From: Eledone cirrhosa
Lineage: Eukaryota
DNA: 64,000 nt
NCBI GenBank assembly: GCA_964016885.1
Contig: OZ024765.1
Location: forward strand, 3,534,001-3,598,000
Direction: 5' to 3'
In this document: one piece after another, positions 1 to 59,991 of the stretch
How positions within the stretch are numbered: position 1 is the first letter of the stretch
How the letters are laid out: each line of letters starts with the position of its first letter
Translations under genes and position numbers: made by a program
The notes under the pieces: generated by a model
What the model saw: the letters and a program-made list of their open reading frames with translations, nothing else
What the model was told of the DNA's origin: nothing
The model's database searches: none

Positions 1-134
1 ATAGAGAGAGAGAGAGAGAGATATATAGATATTTATTTTTATTTTTTTAACTAATATATATATATATTTATTTTTTCAGAAATAATTGTTTCTACTTCAG
101 GGCACAAGCAGTGTCGGGTTTAAGACAAATGAGA

Positions 135-1855
135 GCCTGTACTAGTTTGGTTATGAGGTCCTGTGTTAGTTAAGTTATGAAGCCCTGTGTTAGTTAAGTT
201 ATGAGGTCCTGTGTTAGTTAAGTTATGAGAGCCTGTGTTAGTTAAGTTATAAGACCCCGTGTTAGTTAAATTATGAGACCCTGTGTTAGTTAAGTTATGA
301 GAGCCTGTGTTAGTTAAGTTATGAGACCCCGTGTTAGTTAAATTATGAGGTCCTGTGTTAGTTAAGTTATGAGAGCCTGTGTTAGTTAAGTTATGAGGTC
401 CTGTGTTAGTTAAATTATGAGACCCTGTGTTAGTTAAGTTATGAAGCCCTGTGTTAGTTAAGTTATGAGGTCCTGTGTTAGTTAAGTTATGAGGTCCTGT
501 GTTAGTTAAGTTATGAGGTCCTGTGTTAGTTAAGTTATGAGGTCCTGTGTTAGTTAAGTTATGAAGCCCTGTGTTAGTTAAGTTATGAGAGCCTGTGTTA
601 GTTAAGTTATGAGACCCCGTGTTAGTTAAATTATGAGACCCTGTGTTAGTTAAGTTATGAAGCCCTGTGTTAGTTAAGTTATGAGGTCCTGTGTTAGTTA
701 AGTTATGAGGTCCTGTGTTAGTTAAGTTATGAGGTCCTGTGTTAGTTAAGTTATGAGGTCCTGTGTTAGTTAAGTTATGAAGCCCTGTGTTAGTTAAGTT
801 ATGAGACCCCGTGTTAGTTAAGTTATGAGAGCCCGTGTTAGTTAAGTTATGAGGTCCTGTGTTAGTTAAGTTATGAGGTCCTGTGTTAGTTAAGTTATGA
901 GACCCCGTGTTAGTTAAGTTATGAGGTCCTGTGTTAGTTAAGTTATGAGACCCCGTGTTAGTTAAATTATGAGACCCCGTGTTAGTTAAGTTATGAGGTC
1001 CTGTGTTAGTTAAGTTATGAGACCCCGTGTTAGTTAAGTTATGAGAGCCTGTGTTAGTTAAGTTATGAGGCCCTGTGTTAGTTAAGTTATGAAGCCCTGT
1101 GTTAGTTAAGTTATGAGAGCCCGTGTTAGTTAAGTTATGAGGTCCTGTGTTAGTTAAGTTATGAAGCCCTGTGTTAGTTAAGTTATGAGAGCCTGTGTTA
1201 GTTAAGTTATGAGGCCCTGTGTTAGTTAAGTTATGAGACTCCGTGTTAGTTAAGTTATGAGAGCCTGTGTTAGTTAAGTTATGAGAGCCTGTGTTAGTTA
1301 AGTTATGAGGCCCTGTGTTAGTTAAGTTATGAGGTCCTGTGTTAGTTAAGTTATGAGAGCCTGTGTTAGTTAAGTTATGAAGCCCTGTGTTAGTTAAGTT
1401 ATGAGGTCCTGTGTTAGTTAAGTTATGAGAGCCTGTGTTAGTTAAGTTATGAGAGCCTGTGTTAGTTAAGTTATGAGGCCCTGTGTTAGTTAAGTTATGA
1501 GAGCCTGTGTTAGTTAAGTTATGAGAGCCTGTGTTAGTTAAGTTATGAGAGCCTGTGTTAGTTAAGTTATGAGGTCCTGTGTTAGTTAAGTTATGAGGTC
1601 CTGTGTTAGTTAAGTTATGAGGTCCTGTGTTAGTTAAGTTATGAGAGCCTGTGTTAGTTAAGTTATGAGAGCCTGTGTTAGTTAAGTTATGAGGTCCTGT
1701 GTTAGTTATGAGACCCTGTACTAGTTGGGTTATGAGACCCTGTTTTAGTCAAGTTATGAGACCCTGTACTAGTTAGGTTACGATGTCCTGTGCTAGTTAT
1801 GAGACCCTGTGTTAGTTAAATTATGAGGTTATGTGTTAGTAAGTTATGAGGTCCC
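135..1855. repeat. 24-bp minisatellite (GTTAGTTAAGTTATGA + variable GGTCC/AGCCC/GAGCC/GACCC + TGT), about 70 copies
   Basis: Direct 24-nt periodicity (e.g. GTGTTAG at 163 and 187); ends are degenerate. Confidence 0.97.
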
Positions 1856-3038: not shown

Positions 3039-3591
3039 TTATGTGTGTCTGTGTTTATACGTGGTGTGGATGTAGGTGGCGTGGTTCGAAAAAGAATCTG
3101 ACTGTTTGTTCGTGGGTAAGTTCCTAAGATAGTTCCGTGGAGTGTGCGATAAGATGTTGGATATTTCTCATGTTATAAAGTGGATAGTTGGAACGATGAC
3201 CGGTGGTGTGAAATCCATTTGTGGTGGTGATGCGGAAGTGGAGAGATGTGGGGGTGCGCGCGCAATAGGAAGTGGTCAGAGGGTCAAGGCAGGGTGAAGA
3301 GATAGCAGTAGAGGAGAATGACAGGTGAAGAAATGGTCTGTATGTGGTGAAGACGGAGGTGCGGTGGACAGGGGAGAGGGATGGGTTGGTGTGAAAGGTG
3401 GAGGGGGAAGGTGGTGATGTCGAGGGATGGGGTGTATATTAGTGGAGGTGTTATGGGATGTGTGTGTGTGCGTGTGTGAAGAGGTGTAAGTGGAGCGGGG
3501 AGAGAGAGAGAAAAGGTGTTGGTGACGGAGCATATATATATATACATATATATAATATATAAGATCAAAAGATGGTTAAAAGAGTTCCATG

Positions 3592-3662
3592 TATTTTATT
3601 ATGCGCATTTCAAAAACAAATATCATCATGCGATGACATTTGCGTTTTCGTCAGATAAAATA
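3592..3662 (-). ncRNA. Type I hammerhead ribozyme, family A
   Basis: Reverse complement of the 3735-3805 motif. Confidence 0.85.
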
Positions 3663-3734
3663 GGGAGGCATGATATGAAGGTTAAAAAACTGCACTATTC
3701 ATAAGTGTTTTTTAACCTTCATATCATGTCTTCC

Positions 3735-3805
3735 TATTTTATCTGACGAAAACGCAAATGTCATCGCATGATGATATTTGTTTTTGAAATGCGCATAATA
3801 AAATA
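3735..3805 (+). ncRNA. Type I hammerhead ribozyme, family A
   Basis: TATTTTAT-CTGACGA-[stem II AAACGCAAATGTCATC/GATGATATTTGTTTTT]-GAAA-T(GCGC)A-TA^ATAAAATA. Perfect 8-bp stem I, AUA triplet. Confidence 0.88.
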
Positions 3806-3928
3806 CATGGAACTCTTTTAACCATCTTTTGATCTTATATATTATATATACTCCAGTCCTACAAGATGTAGAGTGCTACTTATCCGATATCTGCATTGCT
3901 TTATTGTACTACAATAAAACTCACCTCC

Positions 3929-3960
<32 letters not shown>

Positions 3961-5695: not shown

Positions 5696-5805
5696 TTGCA
5701 ATGACAGTGACATGCAAATATCAGCCCCTTCTTTCGAACAATATCAGAAATACAAGGGAGACAATCATGAGAGCCAGACTTTACAGTAACGTTAGTCAAT
5801 AGTGT

Positions 5806-7775
5806 GTAACTCGGGGATCAGAGAGTCACTCTAGGTAGAGCTGCTACTTCTCTGAATTGAGAGATCACGGCTTCGATATTATGGGTATGTCGTTAGAATG
5901 TCTCAGGAGAAAAATCACTGGACATATTTGTAGCTTGGAGATCAGCGAGTCACTCCAGGTAGAGTTGCTACTTCTCTGAATTGAGAGATCACAGCTCTGA
6001 TACTATGGACATGTGGTTAGAATGTCTCAGGAAAGAATCACTGGACATATTTGTAGCTCGGAGATCAGAGAGTCACTCCAGGTAGAGCTGCTACTTCTCT
6101 GAATTGAGAGATCACGGCTTCGATATTATGGGTATGTCGTTAGAATGTCTCAGGAGAAAAATCACTAGACATATTTGTAGCATGGAGATCAGAGAGTCAC
6201 TCCAGGTAGAGTTGCTACTTCTCTGAATTGAGAGATCACAGCTCTGATACTATGGACATGTGGTTAGAATGTCTCAGGAAAGAATCACTGGACATATTTG
6301 TAGCTTGGAGATCAGAGAGTCACTCCAGGTAGAGCTGCTACTTCTCTGAATTGAGAGATCACAGCTCTGATACTATGGACATGTGGTTAGAATGTCTCAG
6401 GAGAGAATCACTGGACATATTTGTAGCTTGGAGATCAGAGAGTCACTCCAGGTAGAGCTGCTACTTCTCTGAATTGAGAGACCACAGCTCTGATACTATG
6501 GACATGTGATTAGAATGTCTCAGGAAAGAATCACTGGAGATATTTGTAGCTGGGAGATCAGAGAGTCACTCCAGGTAGAGCTGCTACTTCTCTGAATTGA
6601 GAGATCACAGCTCTGATACTATGGACATGTAGTTAGAATGTCTCAGGAAAGAATCACTGGAGATATTTGTAGCTCGGAGATAAGAGAGTCACTCCAGGTA
6701 GAGCTGCTACTTCTCTGAATTGAGAGATCACAGCTCTGATACTATGGACATGTGGTTAGAATGTCTCAGGAGAGAATCACTGGACATATTTGTAGCTTGG
6801 AGATCAGAGAGTCACTCCAGGTAGAGCTGCTACTTCTCTGAATTGAGAGACCACAGCTCTGATACTATGGACATGTGATTAGAATGTCTCAGGAAAGAAT
6901 CACTGGAGATATTTGTAGCTGGGAGATCAGAGAGTCACTCCAGGTAGAGCTGCTACTTCTCTGAATTGAGAGATCACAGCTCTGATACTATGGACATGTG
7001 GTTAGAATGTCTCAGGAAAGAATCACTGGAGATATTTGTAGCTGGGAGATCAGAGAGTCACTCCAGGTAGAGCTGCTACTTCTCTGAATTGAGAGATCAC
7101 AGCTCTGATACTATGGACATGTGGTTAGAATGTCTCAGGAGAGAATCACTGGACATATTTGTAGCTTGGAGATCAGAGAGTCACTCCAGGTAGAGCTGCT
7201 ACTTCTCTGAATTGAGAGACCACAGCTCTGATACTATGGACATGTGATTAGAATGTCTCAGGAAAGAATCACTGGAGATATTTGTAGCTGGGAGATCAGA
7301 GAGTCACTCCAGGTAGAGCTGCTACTTCTCTGAATTGAGAGATCACAGCTCTGATACTATGGACATGTGGTTAGAATGTCTCAGGAAAGAATCACTGGAG
7401 ATATTTGTAGCTGGGAGATCAGAGAGTCACTCCAGGTAGAGCTGCTACTTCTCTGAATTGAGAGATCACAGCTCTGATACTATGGACATGTGGTTAGAAT
7501 GTCTCAGGAAAGAATCGCTGGACAGATTTGTAGCTAAGAGATCAAAGAGTCACTCCAGGTAGAGCTGCTACTTCTCTGAATTGAGAGATCACAGCTCTGA
7601 TACTATGGACATGTGGTTAGAATGTCTCAGGAAAGAATCACTGGAGATATTTGTAGCTTGGAGATCAGAGAGTCACTCCAGGTAGAGCTGCTACTTCTCT
7701 GAATTGAGAGACCACAGCTCTGATACTATGGACATGTGGTTAGAATGTCTCAAGAAAGAATCACTGGACAGATTT
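5806..7775 (+). repeat. 123-bp satellite (about 16 copies) amplified from RTE LINE coding sequence
   Basis: Units start at 6176, 6299 and 6422 (123-nt period). Unit matches the RTE fragment at 2037-2155. Confidence 0.93.
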
Positions 7776-10295: not shown

Positions 10296-10672
10296 AATAA
10301 TTGTTTCTACGTTAGGCACAAGGCCAGCAATTTCTCAGTGTATTACTGGTACTTTATTTTATCGACCCCGTAAGGATGAAAGGCAAAGTTAACCTCGGCG
10401 GGATTTGAACTCAGAATGGCAAGGGCCGTAACTCTTTGCTACAAAGCATGGCGTCCGACTCTCTACCAGTACTGCCAATCCCTACAATAATTGTTTCTAT
10501 TTTAGGCACAGGGCCAGCAATTACGCAGTACATTACTGGTACTTTATTTTATCGACCCCGTAAGGATGAAAGGCAAAGTTAACCTCGGCGGGATTTGAAC
10601 TCAGATCATAAAGGGACGTAACTCTATGCTTCAAAGCATGGTGTCCGACTCTCTACCGATACTGCCAATCCA
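10296..10672 (-). mobile_element. Two tandem tRNA-derived SINEs (octopus-type family 1)
   Basis: rc has A-box-like TGGCAGTA(T/C)..GG, B-box GAGTTCAAATCC and 3' GTAGAAACAATTATT tail. Confidence 0.88.
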
Positions 10673-10789
10673 CGCACAATAATGAGAGACGGAGGCCGTG
10701 ACAGTGAGGGTTTGGTTCCTTTGTGTTAGGACCTGGTGTAGATGTGTTGCACATAACCAACGTGGAGGAATTTAACATAACTTCCTATA

Positions 10790-13584: not shown

Positions 13585-13743
13585 CATAGAGAGAGAGAGA
13601 GACATAGAGAGAGAGAGAGAACATTTAAAAAAAAAATATATATATATATATGCGTGTGTGTGTGTATAGTGTCATGGGGCCCTGTCAGACATACAGAAAG
13701 GGAGAGCTGTGTGTTATGTACAGAGCTATATAGCATTATAATT

Positions 13744-13863
13744 TCTGAGTTGGAATCCCACCGAGGTTAATTTTGCCTTTCATCTTTACGGGGTCGATAA
13801 AATAAAGTACCAGTAATGCACTGGAGTAATTGCTGGCCTTGTGCCAAAAGGTAGAAACAATTC
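13744..13863 (+). mobile_element. SINE family 1, 5'-truncated
   Basis: CTGAGTTGGAATCCCACCGAGG...GGGGTCGATAAAATAAAGTACCAG...GTAGAAACAATT. Confidence 0.85.
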
Positions 13864-14367
13864 TAATTTCACAATACCATTGCTTGCTACCGATGGTTTC
13901 AAAGCTTACTCTAGTATAGGTCATGGAGACATTATTCGTGCTAGCTCTTGCTTATTGTTCAGACAAGGGCGACCAACTTATATATATACACATGTATATA
14001 TATATATGTGTGTGTGGGGGGGGGGGGCTTAGTGTTTAGGTATATAAACATATATGGACACACACATATTTCTACATTTAAAATATAATATATATATATA
14101 TGTATATATTTATTATTTAATAAACAACATAAGGCAATTATTCCATTTGCCTTATGTTGTTTATTAAATAATAATTAAGCTCTGTTACCTACATAGAGCA
14201 CTCTTTTTTCCTGGACTTTCCCGACGGAATTACTTCATTCATACATATATATGTATATATACAAATATATGTGCGTTTACTTGTATATATGTATACGCAT
14301 ATAAAAAGTCATATACAGTATATACAAGTGCCCATGTGTGTGTATATATATATGTATCTCTCTCGCG

Positions 14368-16421: not shown

Positions 16422-16822
16422 GTAGGAGGTGAGTTTTATTGCAGCACAATAAAGCAATGCAAATATCGGATAAGTAGCACTCTACAGTTTGTAGGATTGG
16501 AGTATACATAATATACAAGATCAAAAGATGGTTAAAAGAGTTCCATGTATTTTATTATGCGCATTTCAAAAACAAATATCATCATGGGATGATATCTGCG
16601 TTCTCATCAGATAAAATAGGGAGACATGATATGAAGCTTAAAAAACACTTGTGAATATGTTGATTTAAAACTTCACTGCTCGCAAGTGTTTTTTAAGCTT
16701 CATATTATGTCTCCCTATTTTATCTGATGAGAACGCATATATCATCCCATGATATTTGTTTTTGAAATGCGCATAATAAAATACTTGGAACTCTTCTAAC
16801 CATCTTTTGATCTTGTATTATA

Positions 16823-16825
<3 letters not shown>
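16422..16825. mobile_element. Palindromic family A element; HHRs at 16548-16618 (-) and 16716-16783 (+)
   Basis: Inverted arms, each with CTGATGA...GAAATGCGCATA^ATAAAATA. Confidence 0.8.
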
Positions 16826-16860
<35 letters not shown>

Positions 16861-16863
<3 letters not shown>

Positions 16864-17019
16864 AACGAGTAGGACCCCGACGGCTGAGCTCAAGCCGTTA
16901 ATTAGCCGTCGAAACGGCTTGAGCTCAGCCGTCAGGGTCCTACTACCCACTCTACTACCCTAAGTATTGAGTACTGTGGTGCGTTATGGTCCACCTGGTT
17001 CCTTACCATATTTCCTTCG

Positions 17020-17020
<1 letters not shown>
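16861..17020. mobile_element. Fold-back family K element (3' half of HHR)
   Basis: GAAACGGCT(TGAGCTC)AGCCGTC^ plus inverted copy. Also at 17581, 32941, 43451 and 48807. Confidence 0.65.
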
Positions 17021-17049
<29 letters not shown>

Positions 17050-17055
<6 letters not shown>

Positions 17056-17562
17056 AGTTTATGTTGGTTGTATACCAACACCTAGTATGCAGGTTGGAGC
17101 ACTCGACGAAGTGCGCAGGTTGGTTTGGTTACTCCGGAGTAGTGTAGAATAAAGTTAAATAAAACAAATGATTAAAATTTAGCTTCGTTTATTACTGCTA
17201 TATATATTTCAGTGACAGCCATCTTTGGCTGTGACCTCTTCAGGCAGTTTGAATTAGTATGGTATAGACAAGTACATATGTTGTTTAGGTGTATGATATT
17301 GTCAATACTCTGATATGCCCAGTTCCTTGTTGGGTTGTTAATGACTCCAGTTCCCCAGTGAATTAACAACCCAACAAGGAACTGGGCATATCAGAGTATT
17401 GACAATATCATACACCTAAACAACATATGTACTTGTCTATACCATACTAATTCAAACTGCCTGAAGAGGTCACAGCCAAAGATGGCTGTCACTGAAATAT
17501 ATATAGCAGTAATAAACGAAGCTAAATTTTAATCATTTGACTTTTATTTAACTTTATTCTAT
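17050..17562. mobile_element. Palindromic family C element; HHRs at 17194-17248 (-) and 17456-17510 (+)
   Basis: ACTGC-CTGAAGA-GGTCACAGCCA(AAGA)TGGCTGTCACT-GAAA-T(ATAT)A-TA^GCAGT. About 190-bp inverted arms. Confidence 0.85.
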
Positions 17563-17794
17563 ATATATATATATATATGTGAAAAGATTCAGGACCCCGA
17601 CGGCTGAGCTCTGGCCGTTTCGGCAGCTAGATCCGAACTAAAGCCTTTAGATCAGATCTAGCTGTCGAAACGGCCGGAGCTCAGCCGTCGGGGTCCTGAA
17701 TCTTTTCATATTACCCACTCTACTACCCCAAGTATGGAGTACTCTGGTGGGTTACGGACTAGCTCAGGCATGTCAAACTGAGGGTCACCCGAGG

Positions 17795-18092: not shown

Positions 18093-18800
18093 GCGGGCCA
18101 CAGGTGTGCCTCTAAAGGGCAGCCCGCGGGCCACAGGTGTGCCTCTAAAGGGCAGCCCGCGGGCCACAGGTGTGCCTCTAAAGGGCAGCCCGCGGCCCAC
18201 AGGTGTGCCTCTAAAGGGCAGCCCGCGGGCCACAGGTGTGCCTCTAAAGGGCAGCCCGCGGTCCACAGGTGTGCCTCTAAAGGGCAGCCCGCGGGCCACA
18301 GGTGTGCCTCTAAAGGGCAGCCCGCGGGCCACAGGTGTGCCTCTAAAGGGCAGCCCGCGGGCCACAGGTGTGCCTATAAAAGGGCAGCCCGCGGGCCACA
18401 GGTGTGCCTCTAAAGGGCAGCCCGCGGCCCACAGGTGTGCCTCCAAAGGGCAGCCCGCGGTCCACAGGTGTGCCTATAAAAGGGCAGCCCGCGGTCCACA
18501 GGTGTGCCTCTAAAGGGCAGCCCGCGGGCCACAGGTGTGCCTATAAAAGGGCAGCCCGCGGTCCACAGGTGTGCCTATAAAAGGGCAGCCCGCGGGCCAC
18601 AGGTGTGCCTCTAAAGGGCAGCCCGCGGCCCACAGGTGTGCCTCTAAAGGGCAACCCGCGGCCCACAGGTGTGTCTCTAATGGGCAGCCCGCGGACCACA
18701 GGTGTGCCTATAAAAGGGCAGCCCGCGGGTCATAGGTGTGCCTCTAAGGCGCAGCCCGTGGGCTGCAGGCGTGTCACTAAAGGGCAACCCGTGGGCCGCA
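18093..18800. repeat. 33-bp GC-rich minisatellite (about 21 copies)
   Basis: Unit GCGGGCCACAGGTGTGCCTCTAAAGGGCAGCCC; explains the RATGVPLKGSP ORFs. Confidence 0.96.
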
Positions 18801-20304: not shown

Positions 20305-20347
20305 TAATATAGATCATTTTTATAAATAAATATTGGCATACCCTTAA

Positions 20348-20533
20348 ATAATTGTTTCTACTATTGGCACAAGGCCAGAAATTATCCAGTACATTACTGG
20401 TACTTTATTTTATCGACCCCCGTAAGGATGAAAGGCAAAGTTAACCTCGGCGGGATTTGAACTCAGAATGGCAAGGGCCGTAACTCTATGCGTCAAAGCA
20501 TGGCGTCCGACCCTCTACCGATACTGCCAATCA
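20348..20533 (-). mobile_element. SINE family 1
   Basis: Same consensus as 55023-55209. Confidence 0.88.
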
Positions 20534-20786
20534 ATGCAACCATTTCTGTTGGAAGCTCCCGGATAGTAAATATATAAATATATATGCGGTGCCCCAGCAT
20601 GGCCTCAGCCGGATGGCTGAAACAGGTAAAAGAGTAAAAGAGTATATATATATATCCTGAATGGAAAAGAATGAAACGAAATTTCATTTCTCACTCTTAG
20701 TACGGCTGATACCTAAATGTAAGTATGTATACGTACATGCATATATGTGTATAGACGTACAGTAGTATGTATATACATACATACAT

Positions 20787-26591: not shown

Positions 26592-27075
26592 TTAAATATA
26601 TATATATATAATATAAGTATGTACACGTACATACATATATATATACAGACGTATGTATATATATATATACATACATGCACACATATATATATATGTACGT
26701 ATGGATTCACCGAACATTTATTATAATGCTCGGTGTGTTTGTAAACGTATACCTTCCTGCCAGATTGTTGAACGTATGTATATACGTTCAACAATCTGGC
26801 AGAAAGGTATACGTTGTTGACGATAGCTAATAAGCTTGAAACTAGTACAGCGTTCCTTTGTCAGTGTTGAACAAGCGAGCAACGATGGTTGCTGGACACT
26901 ACGGATTAATACGGGATGTTTGTTTACAAACACACCGAGCATTATAATAAATGTTCGGTGAATCCATACGTACATATATATATATGTGTGCATGTATGTA
27001 TATATATATATATATACTACTGTACGTCTGTATACATATATGTATGTACGTATACATACTTATATATATATATAT
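26592..27075. mobile_element. Palindromic family E element; left arm internally deleted, HHR 26811-26853 has mutated core TTGACGA
   Basis: Inverted arms centred near 26779. Confidence 0.75.
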
Positions 27076-27395: not shown

Positions 27396-27770
27396 ACTAG
27401 CCGAATTACCCGCGCCTTGCTGCGTTTCACACATTCTGTGTAAGAAAATGATGATTGATTTTAAATCAGTGATATAATTTATGAAGAAAAACTCCATTAG
27501 GGTGTCTTAATATTATTGAAATTTGCTTAAATTTTGTGAATAGGCATCATATCTTGTCATTTACCTATGGTTTAAATTTCATATAAATCGAAGGGAACAC
27601 ATTTTCAGCGGGGGTTTGTGCCCTGGGGGAACCCTTTGATTAAAATGAAATATACTTATCCAAGGACCCTGGACAATGTAGTTTCAGAATATATATGGTT
27701 ATAGGGGTCTATCTCCAAAACCATAGGAGGAGTTTTTGAACAAACAAACAAACAGGAACTACAACTTTAT
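27396..27770 (-). mobile_element. Non-autonomous Helitron-like element (left arm of large palindrome)
   Basis: One end is a GC-rich near-hairpin followed by CTAG-T; the other carries (CAAA)n. Architecture recalls Lep1/DINE-like rolling-circle elements. Confidence 0.55.
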
Positions 27771-27792
27771 ATATATATATATATATATATAT

Positions 27793-28312
27793 GTAGGAGG
27801 TGAGTTTTATTGTAGCACAATAAAGCAATGCAAATATCGGATAAGTAGCACTCTACAGTTTGTAGGACTGGAGTATAAATAATATATAAGATGAAAAGAT
27901 GGTTAAAAGAGTTCCAAGTATTTTATTATGCGCATTTCAAAAACAAATATCATCATGGGGTGATATCTGCGTTCTCATCAGATAAAATAGGGAGACATGA
28001 TATGAAGTTTAAAAAACACTTGTGAGCAGTGAAGTTTTAAATCAACATATCAACATATGTTGATTTAACACTTCACTGCTTACCAGTGTTTTTTAAACTT
28101 CATATCATGTCTCCCTATTTTATCTGATGAGAACGCAGATATCACCCCATGATGATATTTGTTTTTGAAATGCGCATAATAAAATACTTGGAACTCTTTT
28201 AACCATCTTTTGATCTTATATATTATTTATACTCCAGTCCTACAAACTGTAGAGTGCTACTTATCCGATATTTGCATTGCTTTATTGTACTACAATAAAA
28301 CTCACCTCCTAC
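27793..28312. mobile_element. Full palindromic family A element; HHRs at 27919-27989 (-) and 28116-28186 (+)
   Basis: About 250-bp inverted arms, centre near 28050. Confidence 0.82.
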
Positions 28313-28324
28313 ATATATATATAT

Positions 28325-28702
28325 ATATAAAGTTGTAGTTCCTGTTTGTTTGTTTGTTCAAAAACTCCTCCTATGGTTTTGGAGATAGACCCCTATAACC
28401 ATATATATTCTGAAACTACATTGTCCAGGGTACTTGGATAAGTATATTTCATTTTAATCAAAGGGTTCCCCCAGGGCACAAACCCCCGCTGAAAATGTGT
28501 TCCCTTCGATTTATATGAAATTTAAACCATAGGTAAATGACAAGATATGATGCCTATTCACAAAATTTAAGCAAATTTCAATAATATTAAGACACCCTAA
28601 TGGAGTTTTACTCCATGAATTATATCACTGATTTAAAATCAATCATCATTTTCTTACACAGAATGTGTGAAACGCAGCAAGGCGCGGGTAATTCGGCTAG
28701 TA
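28325..28702 (+). mobile_element. Non-autonomous Helitron-like element (right arm)
   Basis: Ends ACGCAGCAAGGCGCGGGTAATTCGGCTAGT; inverted copy of 27396-27770. Confidence 0.55.
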
Positions 28703-29220: not shown

Positions 29221-29378
29221 AATATAACAGGAGGCTGGACTTGTGTAAATCCTTGAAAAGTTTATTATACTCTGACCATTTCAATGACTGGAAGATGCTA
29301 GAAGCTGGGTCGTCCTCCGGTCTATGATTTTAAGCCCCATGGATTTTATCTGTTACATGCATTTATTATATTTCGAAT

Positions 29379-29553
29379 TGGCAGTATCGGTAGAGAGTCG
29401 GACGCCATGCTTTGACGCATAGTTACGGCCCTTGCCATTCTGAGTTCAAATCCCGCCGAGGTTAACTTTGCCTTTCATCCTTACGGGGGTCGATAAAATA
29501 AAGTACCAGTAATGCACTGGGTAATTACTGGCCTTGTGCCAAAAGTAGAAACA
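29379..29553 (+). mobile_element. SINE family 1 with 14-bp TSD
   Basis: ATTATATTTCGAAT at 29365-29378 and 29554-29567. Confidence 0.92.
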
Positions 29554-29565
29554 ATTATATTTCGA

Positions 29566-29623
29566 ATACCTGATGATATCACCGGATTCATACGGAACCC
29601 GGTCATTGAAATGATCAAAGTAT
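29566..29623 (+). ncRNA. HHR-like motif, family O (non-canonical triplet)
   Basis: ATAC-CTGATGA-TATCACCGG..CCGGTCATT-GAAA-T(GATC)A-AA^GTAT. Confidence 0.6.
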
Positions 29624-29811
29624 AATAAACCTTTCAAGGATTTACACAAATCCAGCCTCCTGTCATTTCATTATATTTAACTCCGTAATAGCACCACCAA
29701 CTACAAAAACAAAGACGGTTGAACTGCTTTACGTTGAGTACTCTCTATATTATTACATCAAGATTGACCATACGGAATTGACCAGCTCTATCCAGTGGTG
29801 AACCTCAAACC

Positions 29812-29847
<36 letters not shown>

Positions 29848-30170: not shown

Positions 30171-30301
30171 ATTAAATTTGCTATGGTAAGATCCTATCGT
30201 TATCTTGACACCTTTAATTTTCTAATGCATTGTATGGCTTTTAAAATTATCTACATTTATTTTTCCTAAACAATGCTTCAAGTGAACTACAACACTCTTA
30301 T

Positions 30302-30355
<54 letters not shown>

Positions 30356-30424
30356 GAGTGTTGTAGTTCGTTTGAAGCATTGTTTAGGAAATATAAATAG
30401 GAAAATCTGCTTCGTAGAATCGAG

Positions 30425-30855: not shown

Positions 30856-30989
30856 GATAAATCTACCAAGAGTTTACGGTAGTGTCCAATCCGTATGAAG
30901 AACTCAATGTAATCCGGATATCATGGAAAGAAGAGATGTAATGAAAAATCACTTTCGGTGAAAGATAAACGGAATACAGAGTCAAGATA

Positions 30990-31394
30990 AAATATTAAAA
31001 AAATAATGAAAAAAACAATGAAACAGTTCCTTATATTAAACAAAAAAAGTTCATTATTTAACGATCGTTTCTAGGATATATATGTGTTAGAATTGGCATG
31101 CATATTCAACAGATCTATGTACAAAATTATACAAAATTATACAAACTATCAAAATTAAATATACATACCAAACACATATATATGCCGTCTTATTTCTGAA
31201 GACGGCATATATATGTGTTTGGTATGTATATTTAATTTTGATAGTTTGTATAATTTTGTATAATTTTGTACATAGATCTGTTGAATATGCATGCCAATTC
31301 TAACACATATATATCCTAGAAACGATCGTTAAATAATGAACTTTTTTTGTTTAATATAAGGAACTGTTTCATTGTTTTTTTCATTATTTTTTTA

Positions 31395-31402
<8 letters not shown>
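30990..31402. mobile_element. Palindrome of about 400 bp with family H HHR at 31190-31336 (+)
   Basis: TTATTT-CTGAAGA-CGGCATATATATGTGTT...AACACATATATATCCTA-GAAA-C(GATC)G-TT^AAATAA. Confidence 0.75.
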
Positions 31403-31426
<24 letters not shown>

Positions 31427-31596: not shown

Positions 31597-31842
31597 AGAA
31601 TTAGAAATAGAAGATAAATAGAAAAGTAAAGAGTGATGAGAGGAAAGAATGGGGAAAATGAGAATATACATATGTATATGTATGTAAGATAATATGGAGT
31701 AGATGAAACAAAATCAAAATAAAGAGACACAGAGAAGCAAAAAATAATCATTGAGAGGGTGTCAACTGCGTGACGAAAGAGGTTTGGCAATTAGATAATC
31801 ATGAGATTACAAAACTAATCCAGTAATGGATTAATTAAACTA

Positions 31843-32010
31843 ATAATTGTTTCTACTTTTGGCACAAGACCAGCAATTACCCAGTACATTACTGGTACTT
31901 TATTTTATCGACCCCGTAAGGATGAAAGGCAAAGTTAACCTCGGCGGGATTTGAACTCAGATCATAAAGGGACGTAACTCTTTGTGTCAAAGCATGCCGT
32001 CCGACCCTCT
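31843..32010 (-). mobile_element. SINE family 1
   Basis: Matches consensus. Confidence 0.88.
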
Positions 32011-32466
32011 ATTGATTAAACTATGATTTCGGAGCAAAAATCATTAGACATGTCCGTCGAACCTGCAGATCAAGAATCAGACAGATCCACACAATGGTCG
32101 TGTCTCGAGCTGTGCGCCGGCGAAACAATTGTAACACACAGTAAATTGAGTTCAGATGCATCACTGATTTTTTGTTTTATATTATATATATATATATATA
32201 CATATTACACACAGACACATATAAACCCCTCCATATATATATATATATATAAATATAAGTATGTATACGTACATACATATATATGTATACAGACGCAAAG
32301 CAGTATGTATATATATATATACATACACGCACACATATATATATGTACGTATGGATTCACCGAACATTTATTATAATGCTCGGTGTGTTTGTAAACAAAC
32401 ATCCCGAATTAAGACGTACAGTGTCTAGCAACCATCGTTGCTCGTTTGTTCAACACTGACAAAGGA

Positions 32467-32881: not shown

Positions 32882-33259
<378 letters not shown>

Positions 33260-42440: not shown

Positions 42441-42748
42441 ATAATTGTTTCTACTTTTGGCACAAGGCCAGCATTTATCCCAGTGTATTACTGGTACTTT
42501 ATTTTATCGCGACCCCGTAAGGATGAAAGGCAAAGTTAACCTCGGCGGGATTTTAACTCAGACTATAAAGGGCCGTAACTCTATGCTGCAAAGCATGGCG
42601 TCCGACCCTCTACCGATACTGCCAATCCGCTGCCCTAATATATATATAAATAATTGTTTCTACTTCTGGCACAAGGCCAGCAACTACCTCAGTACATTAC
42701 TGGTACTTTATTTTATCGATCCTGTAAGGACGAAAGGCAAAGTTAAGC
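42441..42748 (-). mobile_element. Two tandem SINE family 1 copies
   Basis: Matches consensus; second copy truncated. Confidence 0.87.
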
Positions 42749-42909: not shown

Positions 42910-43222
42910 ATATATAAAGAATGAATAATAACAGGTAGACATCATAAAAAGGTAATTTATTCCGTGTGCTTACAAGTGTTTCCACGGTGGTACTACAGCC
43001 TAGTTATGCTATGTGCAAATTTACAAGAATTTGCAGAAACTCTAATATCCAATGCTGTGACCACTGTATCCTCAGAGGATACAGTGGTCACAGCATTGGA
43101 TATTTTGTAAATTTGCACATAGCATAACTAGGCTGTAGTACCACCGTGGAAACATTTGTAAGCACACGGAATAAATTACCTTTTTATGATGTCTACCTGT
43201 TATTATTCATTCTTTATATACA
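42910..43222. mobile_element. Palindrome with family J HHR (minus strand, about 42966-43077)
   Basis: rc CTGAGGA-TACAGTGGTCACAGC...GCTGTAGTACCACCGTG-GAAA-C(ACTT)G-TA^AGCAC. Fold-back centre lies at the core. Confidence 0.7.
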
Positions 43223-43355
43223 CTCCGGAATACAAAAGGATCAGGAACTAAGTTTCTTCAACAATTCTTCCATAACTCGTAGAGTAACCTCTCACCGTAC
43301 GTCAACCATATCCAGTGTAGTAATTAACCATACTACATCTTGGGTAATCCTATAC

Positions 43356-43450
<95 letters not shown>

Positions 43451-43453
<3 letters not shown>

Positions 43454-43636
43454 CGAGGGAAAAGTGGTAAGGAACCAGGTGGACCATAACGCACCAAAGT
43501 ACTCAATACTTAGGGTAGTAGAGTGGGAAATAGGAGTAAGTAAGACCCCGACGGCTGAGCTCAAGCCGTTTCGACGGCTAACTCAGAATTAGCCGTCGAA
43601 ACGGCTTTGAGCTCAGCCGTCGGGGTCTTACTTACT

Positions 43637-43640
<4 letters not shown>
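43451..43640. mobile_element. Fold-back family K element
   Basis: Same structure as 32941-33150. Confidence 0.7.
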
Positions 43641-43688
<48 letters not shown>

Positions 43689-48765: not shown

Positions 48766-48806
<41 letters not shown>

Positions 48807-48810
<4 letters not shown>

Positions 48811-49006
48811 AACGAGTAGGACCCCGACGGCTGAGCTCGAGTCGTTTCGACGGCTAATTCTGGACTCAGAGTCCAGAATTAGCCGTCGAAACAGCTTGAG
48901 CTCTGCTGTCGGGGTCCTACTTGTTCCTATTACCCACTCTACTACCCTAAGTATTGAGTACTTTGGTGCGTTATGGTCCACCTGGTTCCTTACCACATTT
49001 CCTTCG

Positions 49007-49007
<1 letters not shown>
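48807..49007. mobile_element. Fold-back family K element
   Basis: Same structure as the other K copies; centre GACTCAGAGTC. Confidence 0.7.
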
Positions 49008-49077
<70 letters not shown>

Positions 49078-49105: not shown

Positions 49106-50075
49106 GGGACACCACAAGTCTCCACTACTACAGGTAGCCAGCTCAGCGCCTATGGTGGTGAGTAGGGAGGTAGCCCTCGGGCCAAGGACACCACAAGTCT
49201 CCACTACTACAGGTAGCCAGCTCAGCGCCTATGGTGGTGAGTAGGGAGGTAGCCCTAGGGCCAAGGACACCACAAGTCTCCACTACTACAGGTAGCCAGC
49301 TCAGCGCCTATGGTGGTGAGTAGGGAGGTAGCCCTCGGGCCAAGGACACCACAAGTCTCCACTACTACAGGTAGCCAGCTCAGCGCCTATGGTGGTGAGT
49401 AGGGAGGTAGCCCTAGGGCCAAGGACACCACAAGTCTCCACTACTACAGGTAGCCAGCTCAGCACCTATGGTGGTGAGTAGGGAGGTAGCCCTAGGGCCA
49501 AGGACACCACAAGTCTCCACTACTACAGGTAGCCAGCTCAGCGCCTATGGTGGTGAGTAGGGAGGTAGCCCTAGGGCCAAGGACACCACAAGTCTCCACT
49601 ACTACAGGTAGCCAGCTCAGCGCCTATGGTGGTGAGTAGGGAGGTAGCCCTCGGGCCAAGGACACCACAAGTCTCCACTACTACAAATAGCCAGCTCAGC
49701 ACCTATGGTGGTGAGTAGGGAGGTAGCCCTCGTCCAAGGACACCACAAGTCTCCACTACTACAAATAGCCAGCTCAGCGCCTATGGTGGTGAGTAGGGAG
49801 GTAGCCCTCGGGCCAAGGACACCAGAAGTCTCCACTGCTACAGGTAGCCAGCTCAGCGCCTATGGTGGTGAGTAGGGAGGTAGCCCTCGGGCCAAGGACA
49901 CCAGAAGTCTCCACTGCTACAGGTAGCCAGCTCAGCGCCTATGGTGGTGAGTAGGGAGGTAGCCCTCGGGCCAAGGACACCAGAAGTCTCCACTGCTACA
50001 GGTAGCCAGCTCAGCGCCTATGGTGGTGAGTAGGGAGGTAGCCCTCGGGCCAAGGACACCACAAGTCCCCACTGC
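49106..50075. repeat. 79-bp satellite, about 12 copies
   Basis: GGACACCACAAG at 49186 and 49265 gives the period. Confidence 0.96.
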
Positions 50076-54634: not shown

Positions 54635-54677
54635 GTCAAAGGTCTTTCGTCACGCATTCTGTGACCTCTTCAGTGAC
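54635..54677 (-). ncRNA. Type I HHR, family N
   Basis: rc GTCA-CTGAAGA-GGTCAC(AGAATGC)GTGAC-GAAAGACCTT^TGAC. Fold-back derivative at 56115-56191. Confidence 0.72.
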
Positions 54678-55022: not shown

Positions 55023-55209
55023 AAAGGCGGTGAATTGGCAGTATCGGTAGAGGGTTGGACGCCATGCTTTCTAGCATAGTTACGTCCCTTTACGGTCTGA
55101 GTTCAAATCCCGCCAAGGTTAACTTTGCCTTTCATCCTTACGGGGTCGATAAAATAAAGTACCAGTAATGTACTGGGTAATTGCTGGCCTTGTGCCTAAA
55201 GTAGAAACA
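55023..55209 (+). mobile_element. Full-length SINE family 1 with 17-bp TSD
   Basis: A box TGGCAGTATCGG, B box GAGTTCAAATCC; ATTAATTTCTCTATTTT at 55006-55022 and 55210-55226. Confidence 0.93.
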
Positions 55210-55223
55210 ATTAATTTCTCTAT

Positions 55224-55285
<62 letters not shown>

Positions 55286-55289
55286 AAAA

Positions 55290-55635
55290 GTTCTATTTAA
55301 AATTGTTGGGATACAACAAGTAAATATTTTTATAACTGATATAAAGCACTCGACAAGTTTTTGGAGTAGATATACGATATTAATAAATGGAAACTATATT
55401 TATAAAACCATATTTATTTCATTATACATATTTCAGGGATACCACATTAAATTATGGCATGCCTTCATCAGACAAAATACAATATCCAGACAGCCTCCAA
55501 AAGTAATGGTTGCATTTTAATAGGGTACGTCAAAGCTATTTATAAAACTGTTATATATTGTATTTTGTCTGATGAAGGCATACCATAATTTAATGTCGTA
55601 TCCCTGAAATATGTACAATGAAATAAATATGGTTT

Positions 55636-55645
<10 letters not shown>
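55290..55645. mobile_element. Palindromic family D element; HHRs at 55415-55479 (-) and 55561-55625 (+)
   Basis: Inverted CTGATGAAGGCAT...CCCTGAAATATGTA arms. The + copy has the triplet mutated to ACA. Confidence 0.75.
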
Positions 55646-55671
<26 letters not shown>

Positions 55672-56642
55672 ATACATTAACAGAGAAAGCCTTAAGCGAT
55701 ACTCTGACCAACTCCATCTCACTCAACAAACATTACTCTTTTACTCTTTAACCTGTTTCAGCCATCCGGCTGAGGCCATGCTGGGGCACCGCCCTTGATA
55801 TAATTTTCCCATTTTAGTGTTTGGGGTGCTAACTATGCTGTATTTTGTGGATAGCTGATTGTATTATTTATATGAGACATAATTAAATAAATATCTCTTT
55901 ATATATAAGAAACAGGGGCTGTGTAGTTGCTGGAAAGGGCGTATTTATAAATAAGAGGAAAGCACGAACGGGGGATAATTTTCCTTCATCAGCTGTCTGC
56001 TGGAGATCATGGATATTTCTACGTATATATATATGACCCTCCCAAAGTATAACAATATCGGTTTCAACACACGTTTTCAGATAAAGAATCTTGCTAAACA
56101 AATTCAGAAACGAAATATATTGTCAAAGTTCTTTCGTCACACAGTGACCTGAAGTCACAGAATGGTGTGACGAAAGAACTTTGACAATATATGAACAACC
56201 GTCCGGTTGTGGAACCAACCAACCAACCAACCGGAAATTTATAAATTTCTTAAATTTCTTAAATTTATAATTTAATTTATAATAAAGTGGAGTGAAAGCA
56301 ACTGGTGCGTGTGTTTCTTATTGGCAACATGACCCTCCCAAAGAATAACAATATATATATATATATGAGACTATACAAAGTAAGTTAAGTATAATTTATA
56401 ATTTATAATAAAATGGAGTGAAAGCAACTGGTGCGTGTGTTTCTTATTGGCAACATGACCCTCCCAAAGAATAACAATATATATATATGAGACTATACAA
56501 AGTAAGTTAAGTATAATTTATAATTTATAATAAATTAGAGTGAAAGTAACTGGTGCGTGTGTTTCTTATTGGCAACATGACCCACCCAAAGTATAACAAT
56601 ATATATATATATATATATATATTTATTAAAATAACAGATTAA

Positions 56643-56928: not shown

Positions 56929-58744
56929 TTATGTAATGGGATGATAGTAACTAGAGATGAATATAGAAACTGTGGTGGTGTTGGTGGTAGTAGTGCTGTT
57001 CATAGTACAGGTGGTGGTAGTGTAGGTGGCGTTAGTGGTGTTGTTAACATTCCTTTAAAAAAAAAATCGGTGCCACAATTTAAACAACCGGAATTCCCTA
57101 AAAGCCACATGCCCCACCCCACCACTACCACCACCACCACATACTCCCACCCCCCATACCAAACTTAATTCCCCCTCCCCTTTCTTCCCCATGTCCCCTC
57201 CCCCTTTATTACATTAAATCCACCCCCTCCTACCACCACCACCTTGTATCCTACTACCCCTCCCCTCGTTTTTAACTACACCACACACTCCCCACCTCCA
57301 GACTACAACTACCACCAACACTACCACAAAAACAGCAACGGCACCACCACCCCAACAAACACACCACAACCACTACCACTATCACAACAACACCACCACC
57401 ACCACCACTACTACAACAACAACCACCACCGTCACCACCGCCACTACTACAACCACCACATCAACAACAACCACCACCACACCACCTCCACCACTACACC
57501 ACCACCGCCACATCAACAACAACCACCACCACCCCAAGCACCAACACATCACCACCACCACCACTACCACCACATCAACAACCACTACCAACACTACCAC
57601 CACTACCACTACCACCACATCAACAACAACCACCACCACACCACCTCCACCACTACACCACCACCGCCACATCAACAACAACCACCACCACCCCAAGCAC
57701 CAACACACCACCACCACTACCACCACATCAACAACCACTACCAACACTACCACTACCACCACATCAACAACAACCACCACCACACCACCTCCACCACTAC
57801 ACCACCACCGCCACATCAACAACAACCACCACCACCCCAAGCACCAACACACCACCACCACTACCACCACATCAACAACCACTACCAACACTACCACCAC
57901 TACCACTACCACCACATCAACAACAACCACCACCACACCACCTCCACCACTACACCACCACCGCCACATCAACAACAACCACCACCACCCCAAGCACCAA
58001 CACACCACCACCACTACCACCACATCAACAACCACTACCAACACTACCACCACTACCACTACCACCACATCAACCTCAACCACCAACACCCCAACTACCA
58101 CAACATCAACTTCAATCACCACCACTACCACCACCCCACCACAACAACCACCACCACCTTCAACACCACCAATAAACCAATGCTGTCTAAAGTAATTAGG
58201 GTGTAGGTGTAACGGGTACATCTGGAGGGTGGGGTGGGGTGGGGGATGACTGCGGGTGAAATAGGGGTGTAGTGTACCTGTTATGGTAGAGAGGGGAGGG
58301 AACAGTGGAGGAGGGGAGAAAGGGTCAGTTAGTGTGTTCAGCATGTTTATTTGGGACCTCTATCACCACCACCACCACCATCTTCACCAACACCACCGCC
58401 ACCTTCACCAACACCACTATTTGCTTTACCATCACCACCACCACCATAACCACCACCACCATCACCACCATCATCATAACCACCACTACCACCACCAACA
58501 CCACATTGATTTTTTTTCTATTTTGGGTATATTTGTATGAATGTGGTGGTGGTGGTGGTGGGGGGGGTAGTAGTAGTGGTGTTGGTGGTGGTTGTGGTGG
58601 TAGTAGTGATATTGGTTGTTGTAGTGGTGTAGGTTGTGGTAGTGGTGGTGTTGTTGTTGGTGGTTAAACTGTGATGATGATGATACATACGTACATACAT
58701 AAATTTATCCATATATATATATACTGTATATATATATATGGATA

Positions 58745-58865
58745 TATAGAAGAGGTTCTACAGGACTAGAACTGTTTCGTTCGTGAGAAATCATCAAGAA
58801 GCTTCCTGATGATTTCTCACGAATGAAACAGTTCTAGTCCTGTAGAAGCTCTTCTATATTAAAAC
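58745..58865. mobile_element. Head-to-head family B palindrome; HHR at 58800-58850 (+)
   Basis: AGCTTC-CTGATGA-TTTC(TCAC)GAAT-GAAACAGTTCTAGTCCTGTA^GAAGCT. Left-arm core is mutated to TTGATGA. Confidence 0.82.
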
Positions 58866-59991
58866 TTTTATACTCTGATATATATATGGATATAATATAT
58901 ATATATATATATATATACACATGTACATACATATATCCACATATGTATGTATATGGACATAATTAAGTTTTTAGTCTCGTCTCAAGCCTCATCACGTGAC
59001 CGACGGGACGGTGTGGGAATATGCGAGATTTCATGTACACAAATACAGAGGAAAATGAGAAAAATAATCGCCAGTTAAATGTTTATACATTGCACATATT
59101 CCAAGACAAATATACATTCGTGTCGTTATCTGTGTGTGTGTGTGTGTGTGTGTGTGTGCTTACTCCACTGGACAGGGTTTGGCTTGTGTCAGACGCTGTG
59201 ACCCCGGGTGGACCAGCAGTACCGTTGGCAGGGGCCGAAATTGCCAAAGTCCACCTCAATGGCCGATGACCCGAGAGTTCTGTATCCTTCGTTTGTACTT
59301 GTATTTAAAAAAAAAAAAAAAATTTTTAAAGGTTTTTCCCTTAGAAAAATATTGTTTTTTGTTTGTTGGTGATGGCTGCAACTCGATTTTGAGTAATGCC
59401 ATTGCTTGATACTTAAGCATGAGCATCATGGACATGGCTTTTCAATCCTGCTAGGGACTTACTTACCTATGGCCAGCAATACTATGCATAGCAAAAAATG
59501 TTACATCAAGCGTTGCCTATGCTTGAAGCTTTTTTTTTTAAGTGAGGAAGGCTTTGCGCGGAGCCAATCCCATTCTCTGAACATTGAATTTCTTTGCCCC
59601 AAAAGTAGAACTGGTCTACACCATTGGATACAAACATGGTGGCTGCCAACTCGTTCTCGAGTACGGCCACTACTTTATATCCATTTAGGAGAACCCTTAC
59701 TGATGCGCTGAATGAGTGTGACATTTTAGTCCAGCCAGCGACTTGAAAACTCTGGTACAAACACTACACTTGTGACAATTACTGACACATAGTGCTGGGC
59801 CCATGGTACCATGTGATGACAAGTGCAGAGAGATCTCCAGATATAAAGCAATGCCTGTGCCGTGAAGCTTTTATAGTGAGATACAAACATACATACATAC
59901 ATACATACATACATACATACATACATACATACATACATACATACATACATACATACATACATACAAACATACATACATACAAACACAACTA

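What the first reader, a model, noticed from the sequence alone, without database searches (positions are those of the whole stretch)
3548..3930. Ribozyme elements repeatedly occur as fold-back palindromes
Seen: inverted duplications occur in A (3.7, 16.65, 28.05 kb), C (17.35), E (26.78), O (29.2-29.7), H (31.19), J (43.07), D (55.5), N (56.15), B (58.80) and K (five loci). HHR 3' ends point outward toward (TA)n. The fold-back point differs between copies of one family, so each inversion seems to arise per insertion. Known: PLE insertions often have an inverted 5'-truncated terminus. Inference: cDNA snap-back or twin priming from both strands of the self-complementary (TA)n target. Transcription from either strand would give a ribozyme plus long dsRNA, a possible ADAR or siRNA substrate.
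Basis: partly seen in the sequence, partly recalled or inferred. Interest (0 to 1): 0.78.

Follow-up and report, generated by a model that had tools for sequence, protein, structure and literature searches.

The report
Twin-primed Penelope retrotransposon palindromes
These palindromes are real head-to-head pairs of ribozyme-bearing ends of Penelope-like retrotransposons in TA repeats, nearly always one arm with an 80-140-base tail and one without, likely made when both cut DNA strands prime reverse transcription at two fixed sites of one capped RNA, which would explain a known but unexplained hallmark of these elements.

Summary
The palindromes are real. Families A, C, K, J and H are 5'-truncated Penelope-like retrotransposons (PLEs); A's protein fits the Hydra clade. 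Inverted 5' copies, optional tails, (TA)n targets and hammerheads are published PLE traits. What the genome adds bears on mechanism. In A, K and C, 79 of 82 classifiable pairs have exactly one tailed and one tailless arm. In A the tailless arm reaches further 5' in 29 pairs, the tailed one in 8. Six pairs share no sequence between arms, so one arm cannot be a snap-back copy of the other. Arms share a subfamily haplotype. Centres vary, but there is a strong hot spot (867 identical A junctions) with excess non-native G, likely the capped 5' end of the RNA. Best reading: two cDNAs primed from both target strands at two fixed sites, then joined head-to-head. The 28-kb locus is a later, larger duplication. 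No RNA or long-read test was possible.

The parts
3547..3690 (-). Family A tailless arm (ruler -222..-81; 0 = tail end); hammerhead core at 3654 to cut site 3600
3686..3930 (+). Family A tailed arm (-243..-1); hammerhead 3743-3797; 81-nt tail about 3850-3930; 5-nt junction overlap
16422..16826 (.). Family A palindrome: tailed arm left (-246..0), tailless arm right starting at the -255 hot spot; arms less concordant than usual (7 of 24 diagnostic sites)
27397..28700 (.). Exceptional 1.3-kb palindrome: two tailed A arms (27793-28312) plus (TA)n and a 370-nt repeated element mirrored on both sides; likely a later duplication
17050..17561 (.). Family C palindrome: tailed arm left (-295..0), tailless arm right (-316..-96); hammerheads at 17243(-) and 17461(+)
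16859..17022 (.). Family K palindrome, tailless + tailed arm; 5' half of hammerhead core absent
17582..17757 (.). Family K palindrome, tailless + (shortened) tailed arm
32939..33150 (.). Family K palindrome, tailed + tailless arm
43451..43641 (.). Family K palindrome, tailed + tailless arm
48806..49009 (.). Family K palindrome, both arms start at the hot spot, each with a non-native G
26677..27068 (.). Family E palindrome; left arm internally deleted and tailless; hammerhead motif at 26817(+)
29227..29845 (.). Family O: short left arm, SINE-like insert 29377-29558, tailed right arm with degenerate hammerhead
30862..31403 (.). Family H palindrome: tail (about 125 nt) on left arm only; long-stem-II hammerhead intact in right arm
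42911..43358 (.). Family J palindrome: tail (about 138 nt) on right arm only; junction falls in the hammerhead 5' core
55283..55641 (.). Family D palindrome: tail on left arm only; hammerhead intact at 55471(-)
56115..56192 (.). Family N palindrome; junction inside the hammerhead (intact family copy at 54673 on - strand)
58706..58892 (.). Family B palindrome; hammerhead motif at 58806(+)

Best explanation
The palindromes are head-to-head pairs of 5'-truncated ends of Hydra-type Penelope-like retrotransposons in (TA)n, nearly always one tailed and one tailless arm, likely made in one insertion by two cDNAs primed from the two cut target strands at two fixed sites of the same uncleaved RNA. Shown: PLE identity, two fixed 3' ends, (TA)n on both sides, one-of-each asymmetry, same subfamily in both arms, a 5' hot spot. 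Inferred: the GIY-YIG nuclease cuts both strands; one 3' end primes just inside the tail and usually leads, the other primes at the tail end and follows, displacing the first cDNA; both stop at random or run off the capped 5' end of the pLTR transcript (hot spot, extra G); the two cDNA ends are joined by short annealing or end-joining and filled in. Short RNAs give 100-500-bp palindromes, read-through tandem RNAs give kilobase ones.
For: PLE ORFs linked to A, C, K, J, H; Atlas neighbours carry HTH_animal (27-69% of members) and GIY-YIG (23% in one set). One tailed + one tailless arm: A 45 of 47, K 21 of 22, C 13 of 13 (p=1e-10 computed for 45 of 48 before two loci were re-read). Tailless arm reaches further 5' in 29, tailed in 8, equal in 8 (p=0.0008). 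No shared sequence between arms: L087, L110, L126 (A), L176, L185 (C), L157 (K). Diagnostic-site mismatch 0.08 within pairs vs 0.46 between random arms. (TA)n next to 58 of 58 tailed and 48 of 52 tailless ends. Hot spot: 25 of 90 A arm ends at -260..-250; 867 exact self-complementary junctions; of 5,609 arms with a non-native base before the hot spot the first 100 have G 38, A 18, T 44. Strand-switch joints in raw reads of 3 other samples. In vitro, another PLE cuts and extends both strands from two start sites that bound the tail (PMC11167929).
Against: Symmetric pairs exist: tailed/tailed L137b (A), L153 (K), L200 (J) without mirrored flanks; L130 and the 28-kb locus with mirrored flanks. 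The tailed arm is longer in 8 A pairs, and in 8 equal-length pairs snap-back cannot be excluded locus by locus. Microhomology is not enriched away from the hot spot (2 nt or more in 5 of 25, a rough estimate). The G excess is absent in family C (1 of 13), 3 of 10 G cases in fetched A loci could come from the partner arm, and the background was assumed, not measured. One RNA versus two RNAs of one source locus cannot be told apart; window 16.4 kb has discordant arms. K was sampled by its tail, so tailless/tailless pairs could not be seen there. No RNA data.
Confidence: 0.72

Rival explanations
1. Snap-back: one cDNA folds back at a short inverted repeat and copies itself, or an antisense RNA self-primes (the model proposed in PMC3846280).
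For: Self-complementary bases at the hot spot; 8 equal-length and 8 tailed-longer A pairs fit; arms share subfamily.
Against: A copy of a tailed cDNA cannot reach further 5' than its template, yet the tailless arm does in 29 of 37 unequal pairs; a copy of a tailless cDNA cannot gain a tail; 6 pairs share no sequence.
Confidence: 0.1
2. Two separate RNA molecules (one per subunit of a dimer, or two successive insertions into one (TA)n tract) each give one arm.
For: Explains long overlaps without strand displacement, the tailed/tailed cases and the discordant arms at 16.4 kb.
Against: Independent insertions would not give 79 of 82 one-of-each pairs, abutting junctions or matched subfamilies. A coordinated dimer loaded with two RNAs of one locus remains possible and differs from the best reading only in template number.
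Confidence: 0.12
3. Fixed palindromic units that move as such (MITE-like), or palindromes made after insertion by DNA fold-back repair.
For: 867 identical centres; mirrored flanks at 28 kb, L111 and L130 show that later mirror duplication does happen.
Against: Arms are unequal, most centres differ, each pair carries its own subfamily haplotype with no arm-specific variants away from the tail boundary; outer ends are the two fixed element ends, not arbitrary DNA.
Confidence: 0.04
4. Assembly or library fold-back artefact.
For: No contig or read spans a window palindrome; no long reads were available.
Against: Arms carry separate mutations (172 differences vs 12 shared private variants in 35 pairs, two mis-cut pairs dropped); a SINE-like insert splits one arm or the centre (L127, window 29.4 kb); tail asymmetry cannot come from mirroring; the same strand-switch joint recurs in 3 other samples.
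Confidence: 0.02

Closest known systems
Hydra clade of Penelope-like elements (PMC8557442; Hydra-1_Obim from Octopus bimaculoides is in its supplement)
   Same: C-terminal GIY-YIG, DKT, CxCx5C linker, no cysteine pair between GIY and YIG, CxxC and CxH near the end, hammerhead, (TA)n target.
   Different: Unit about 3.8 kb with a 1.2-kb 3' UTR versus generally under 3 kb; RW(I) instead of RWK; tens of thousands of short pLTR copies; no tree was built.
Inverted 5' pLTR with optional tail in Penelope, Naiad and Adineta PLEs (PMC3846280, PMC8557442)
   Same: Head-to-head inverted copy, palindrome at the junction, tail usually on one end.
   Different: Tails here are 79-138 nt, not 30-40; the asymmetry is near-strict and either arm can be longer; the published self-priming antisense model does not fit non-overlapping arms.
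Poseidon PAc in vitro mechanism (PMC11167929)
   Same: Two RT start sites bounding the tail, AT-rich target, both strands cut and extended, uncleaved RNA used.
   Different: No start-site difference between strands was seen in vitro and inverted products were not explained in the parts read; in family A both start sites lie upstream of the ORF start.
LINE-1 twin priming (passages in PMC11702581; cap-derived G in PMC4859970)
   Same: Both target ends prime cDNA; inverted 5' part; extra G at capped 5' ends.
   Different: L1 arms abut with 1-10-bp deletions or duplications and the second primer lands at variable places; here the second site is fixed and arms overlap by up to 1.5 kb, giving palindromes in most insertions.
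Minimal type I hammerheads of PLEs and non-LTR retrozymes (PMC4209133; bioRxiv 10.64898/2026.07.22.740005)
   Same: Palindromic loop 3, U3-A8 core variant (family K), pairs on opposite strands 100-700 bp apart already noted in Schistosoma.
   Different: Head-to-head, so each strand has one sense ribozyme; not tandem retrozymes.

Membership tests
EN+ Penelope-like element | Single ORF with RT and GIY-YIG endonuclease | tested here: met
   RT motifs and C-terminal GIY-YIG-type region in real A copies; 28-34% identity to P0004; Atlas lead. Pfam gave no significant hit for 3 of 3 fragments. No single intact full ORF was seen.
EN+ Penelope-like element | pLTR from partial tandems, 5' truncation, inverted 5' copy, tail | tested here: met
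   Tandems in L088, L089, L101, L107, L108; pairs and tails.
EN+ Penelope-like element | Hammerhead in the pLTR | tested here: met
   Motif scans; cleavage activity not testable.
Hydra clade | CxCx5C linker, DKT, no CCHH, CxxC and CxH flanking E and N | tested here: met
   Read from alignment against the text of PMC8557442 section 11; J, C, K fragments show the same linker or RW/RT motifs.
Hydra clade | RWK motif; length under 3 kb | tested here: inconclusive
   RW followed by I in A, RWK in the C-linked ORF; A unit about 3.8 kb. The paper says 'generally' short.
Hydra clade | Insertion in (TA)n | tested here: met
   58 of 58 and 48 of 52 ends.
Hydra clade | Placement in the RT tree | not tested
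Neptune/Nematis clades | CX2-5CxxC linker and CCHH motif | tested here: not met
Naiad clade | N-terminal endonuclease, no canonical hammerhead | tested here: not met
   Endonuclease is C-terminal and hammerheads are present.
MITE / TIR element | Fixed symmetric terminal inverted repeats copied as a unit | tested here: not met
   Unequal arms, variable centres, locus-specific haplotypes.
Non-LTR retrozyme | Head-to-tail tandem units each with a hammerhead | tested here: not met
   19 of 19 close pairs are head-to-head.
ADAR/siRNA substrate | Transcribed, edited or diced hairpin | not testable with these tools
   No RNA run holding the stretch was listed.

The most novel reading that the evidence does not exclude
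Double priming is the default way Penelope-like elements integrate: a dimer on one capped RNA assigns one cut strand to the inner start site and the other to the tail-end site, reads the same RNA twice and joins the two cDNAs head-to-head. Tail, inverted pLTR and junction palindrome would then be one signature, and this genome would hold tens of thousands of such fossil reactions, each a potential hairpin RNA.
Probability: 0.55. Interest if true: 0.72.

Novelty: new member of a known kind. Interest (0 to 1): 0.52.

Why it matters
How PLEs, the closest relatives of telomerase, make their inverted ends and one-sided tails is named as open in PMC8557442 and PMC3846280. The counts here separate the models from genome sequence alone and give sharp predictions: strand-to-site assignment, a capped start at the hot spot, one RNA read twice. 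These very abundant palindromes are also likely to be mis-annotated as MITEs or microRNA precursors (Rfam's best hits were sub-threshold miRNA models), and they are a large possible source of double-stranded RNA.

Tried and rejected
Neptune assignment: my first reading, dropped after the motif check. (AC)n added at tailed ends by reiterative copying: seen in best-hit copies, but 2 of 58 vs 1 of 52 in the ordered sample, rejected. Arms starting at the hammerhead cut site: 0 of 90 A arm ends. Junction microhomology as a general rule: inconclusive; 24 of 46 junctions showed apparent insertions, some from poor library fit, 5 had no library match and 8 were skipped. The 28-kb composite as a mobile unit: only its own two arms cover the query among 40 scored of 958 candidates. 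Rfam listed no hammerhead family among the 150 best of 255 matches shown; Pfam found nothing significant; the protein search, limited to longer proteins, gave one unnamed relative. No RNA holder listed; guessed-RNA run X18 laid nothing. Earlier scan notes: none. No paper found that ties twin priming or cap-derived G to PLE inversions (searches; open-access library only; several key PLE papers from 2005-2008 are recalled only, not read).

Full report
Setting. The window is G000:C26:3534001-3598000 of a 3.0-Gb assembly, very rich in microsatellites.

Observation. After masking simple repeats, fold-backs are found at every place named. At the finding's coordinates the arms are 3547-3690 and 3707-3850, with 2 mismatches in 144 nt, and the right arm continues 81 nt further to 3930. 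Type I hammerhead motifs with a palindromic loop 3 occur 23 times in the window and 0 times in 5 shuffles. They are intact in both arms for A and C, in one arm for D, E, B and H, and broken by the junction or absent in J, N, O and all five K loci. K's full-length ribozyme, seen in other loci, has the U3-A8 core variant (variant described in PMC4209133).

What the families are. Longer A copies run upstream into a C-terminal GIY-YIG-type region and an RT; tandem copies give the ORF start 86 nt after the tail. Motifs (DKT, CxCx5C, no cysteine pair between GIY and YIG, CxxC and CxH at the end) match the Hydra clade as described in PMC8557442 section 11, not Neptune or Naiad; Hydra-1_Obim from an octopus is in that paper's supplement. 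Loci of C, K, J and H also link to such ORFs. D, E, B, N and O were not traced to an ORF; they are assigned by anatomy only. Exact motif counts are 17,660 (A core), 33,537 (K tail) and 7,091 (C).

Sample. For A I fetched 60 regions covering 61 of the 68 clusters formed by the first 100 matches on C1. One region (L112) was taken out of order because it was a pair, and one (L094) was widened to include a palindrome known. For K and C I used the first 30 matches each. Every arm ends at one of two fixed 3' points: the tail end, or 81 (A), 79 (K) or 96 (C) nt before it. Head-to-head pairs with both 3' ends: A 45 one-of-each and 2 symmetric; K 21 and 1; C 13 and 0. For A I counted the mirrored duplicate in L111 once and read L127 as a tailed arm split by a SINE-like insert. 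Left unclassified: L095, L103, L128, L135, L155b, L170, L190/191 and about a dozen single A arms. K was found through its tail, so tailless pairs were invisible there. J and H were best-hit samples and not tallied; J includes one tailed/tailed pair (L200).

Tests of mechanism. In A the tailless arm reaches further 5' in 29 pairs, the tailed arm in 8, and 8 are equal (p=0.0008). Six pairs have no sequence in common (L087, L110, L126, L176, L185, L157). Neither fits one cDNA copying itself. Arms of a pair share their subfamily haplotype (mismatch 0.08 vs 0.46 for random arms over 40 pairs; the within-pair figure is inflated by columns at the tail boundary; one clear exception at window 16.4 kb), so both come from one source. 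They have since mutated separately (172 differences, 12 shared private variants, 35 pairs after dropping two mis-cut pairs), which argues against artefact and against strong homogenisation. Both ends lie in (TA)n (58 of 58, 48 of 52), so target duplications cannot be read.

Hot spot. 25 of 90 A arm ends fall at -260..-250. The genome holds 867 exact self-complementary junctions there, against 794 exact read-through copies. Of 5,609 arms with a non-native base just before this point, the first 100 have G 38, A 18, T 44 (p=2e-5 against an assumed 20%, 0.003 against 25%). In fetched loci G precedes 10 of 27 truncated A arms (3 explicable by the partner arm), 5 of 13 K arms and 1 of 13 C arms. An extra G is the accepted mark of a copied cap in L1 and SVA (PMC4859970 passages). 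I infer that the hot spot is the transcription start of the pLTR RNA; this is weaker than the twin-priming inference. No A arm starts at the ribozyme cut site (0 of 90), so the template was uncut or religated.

Model. Shown: PLE identity, two fixed ends, asymmetry, shared source, hot spot. Inferred: both target strands are cut and each primes at one site; the inner cDNA leads and the tail cDNA follows with displacement (PLE RT lacking RNase H is recalled, not tested); the ends are joined and filled in. In vitro, the Poseidon element PAc cuts and extends both strands from two start sites that bound its tail and prefers uncleaved RNA (PMC11167929, main text read). The published genomic model is self-priming on an antisense template (PMC3846280 passages), and the question is called open in PMC8557442 section 15. 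L1 twin priming differs in giving abutting arms (PMC11702581 passages).

Exceptions. The 28-kb palindrome has two tailed arms and mirrors 370 nt of a flanking repeat as well; arm divergence is similar in both parts (5 of 257, 4 of 371) and no second composite was found. L130 and L111 also mirror their flanks. These are likely later duplications seeded by an existing palindrome. Three tailed/tailed pairs without mirrored flanks show the site rule is not absolute.

Reality check. Raw RAD reads from three other samples show strand-switch joints within family A, one shared by all three (77, 89, 110 reads from 2-3 start points) and one joining a short tailed arm to the hot spot, plus loose (TA)n ends at both fixed 3' points. 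These are family-level joints with few independent molecules. The window's own loci were not spanned by any record.

RNA claim. A read-through transcript folds as a long hairpin; forcing the hammerhead costs 83-102 kcal/mol in four palindromes against 0.3-4 in single arms. Ribozyme and dsRNA are therefore alternatives. siRNAs from Penelope inverted repeats are published (PMC3681739 passages). Expression and editing are untested here.

Papers seen: PMC8557442 (passages, sections 11 and 15, supplement metadata rows); PMC11167929 (parts 1-2 of 4); PMC4209133 (parts 1-2 of 4); bioRxiv 10.64898/2026.07.22.740005 (part 1 of 5); PMC3846280, PMC13282606, PMC4859970, PMC11702581, PMC3681739 (passages). 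Supplement figures and sequence files not seen could contain similar counts.

Verdict. A real, abundant, known kind of structure in new families of a known clade. The value lies in the counts, which favour twin priming from two fixed sites over snap-back and make the model testable.

Noticed in passing
window 27397-27767 and 28330-28700: High-copy 370-nt element ending in a GC-rich hairpin and CTAG, with an internal short tandem repeat; resembles non-autonomous Helitron-type elements (label recalled, not tested).
   Followed up: partly
   Followed up: partly
window 30255-30398: Inverted repeat of opposite type, centred on an (AC)n(AT)n tract.
   Followed up: no
L111 (G000:C1:18485898-18494178): A 7.7-kb mirror duplication that contains two copies of the same small family A palindrome.
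   Followed up: partly
L095:2300-2380: A long tailed A arm is joined head-to-head to a short K fragment before (TA)n; possibly two families used in one insertion.
   Followed up: no
window 10296-10676, 13743-13878, 20341-20538, 29377-29558, 31842-32011, 42441-42746, 55030-55220: Abundant 190-nt SINE-like family, also inserted into PLE copies.
   Followed up: no
window 129-1850, 5805-7775, 18093-18797, 49107-50073, 56274-56597: Minisatellite arrays (24, 123, 33, 79 and about 122-nt units); the last repeats the end of family N with (TA)n between units.
   Followed up: no
L199-L217, L218-L234: Families J and H have hammerheads with very long stem II inserts (about 80 and 125 nt).
   Followed up: partly
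window 30431, 31591, 48064, 26282: Additional hammerhead-bearing families present as single arms.
   Followed up: no
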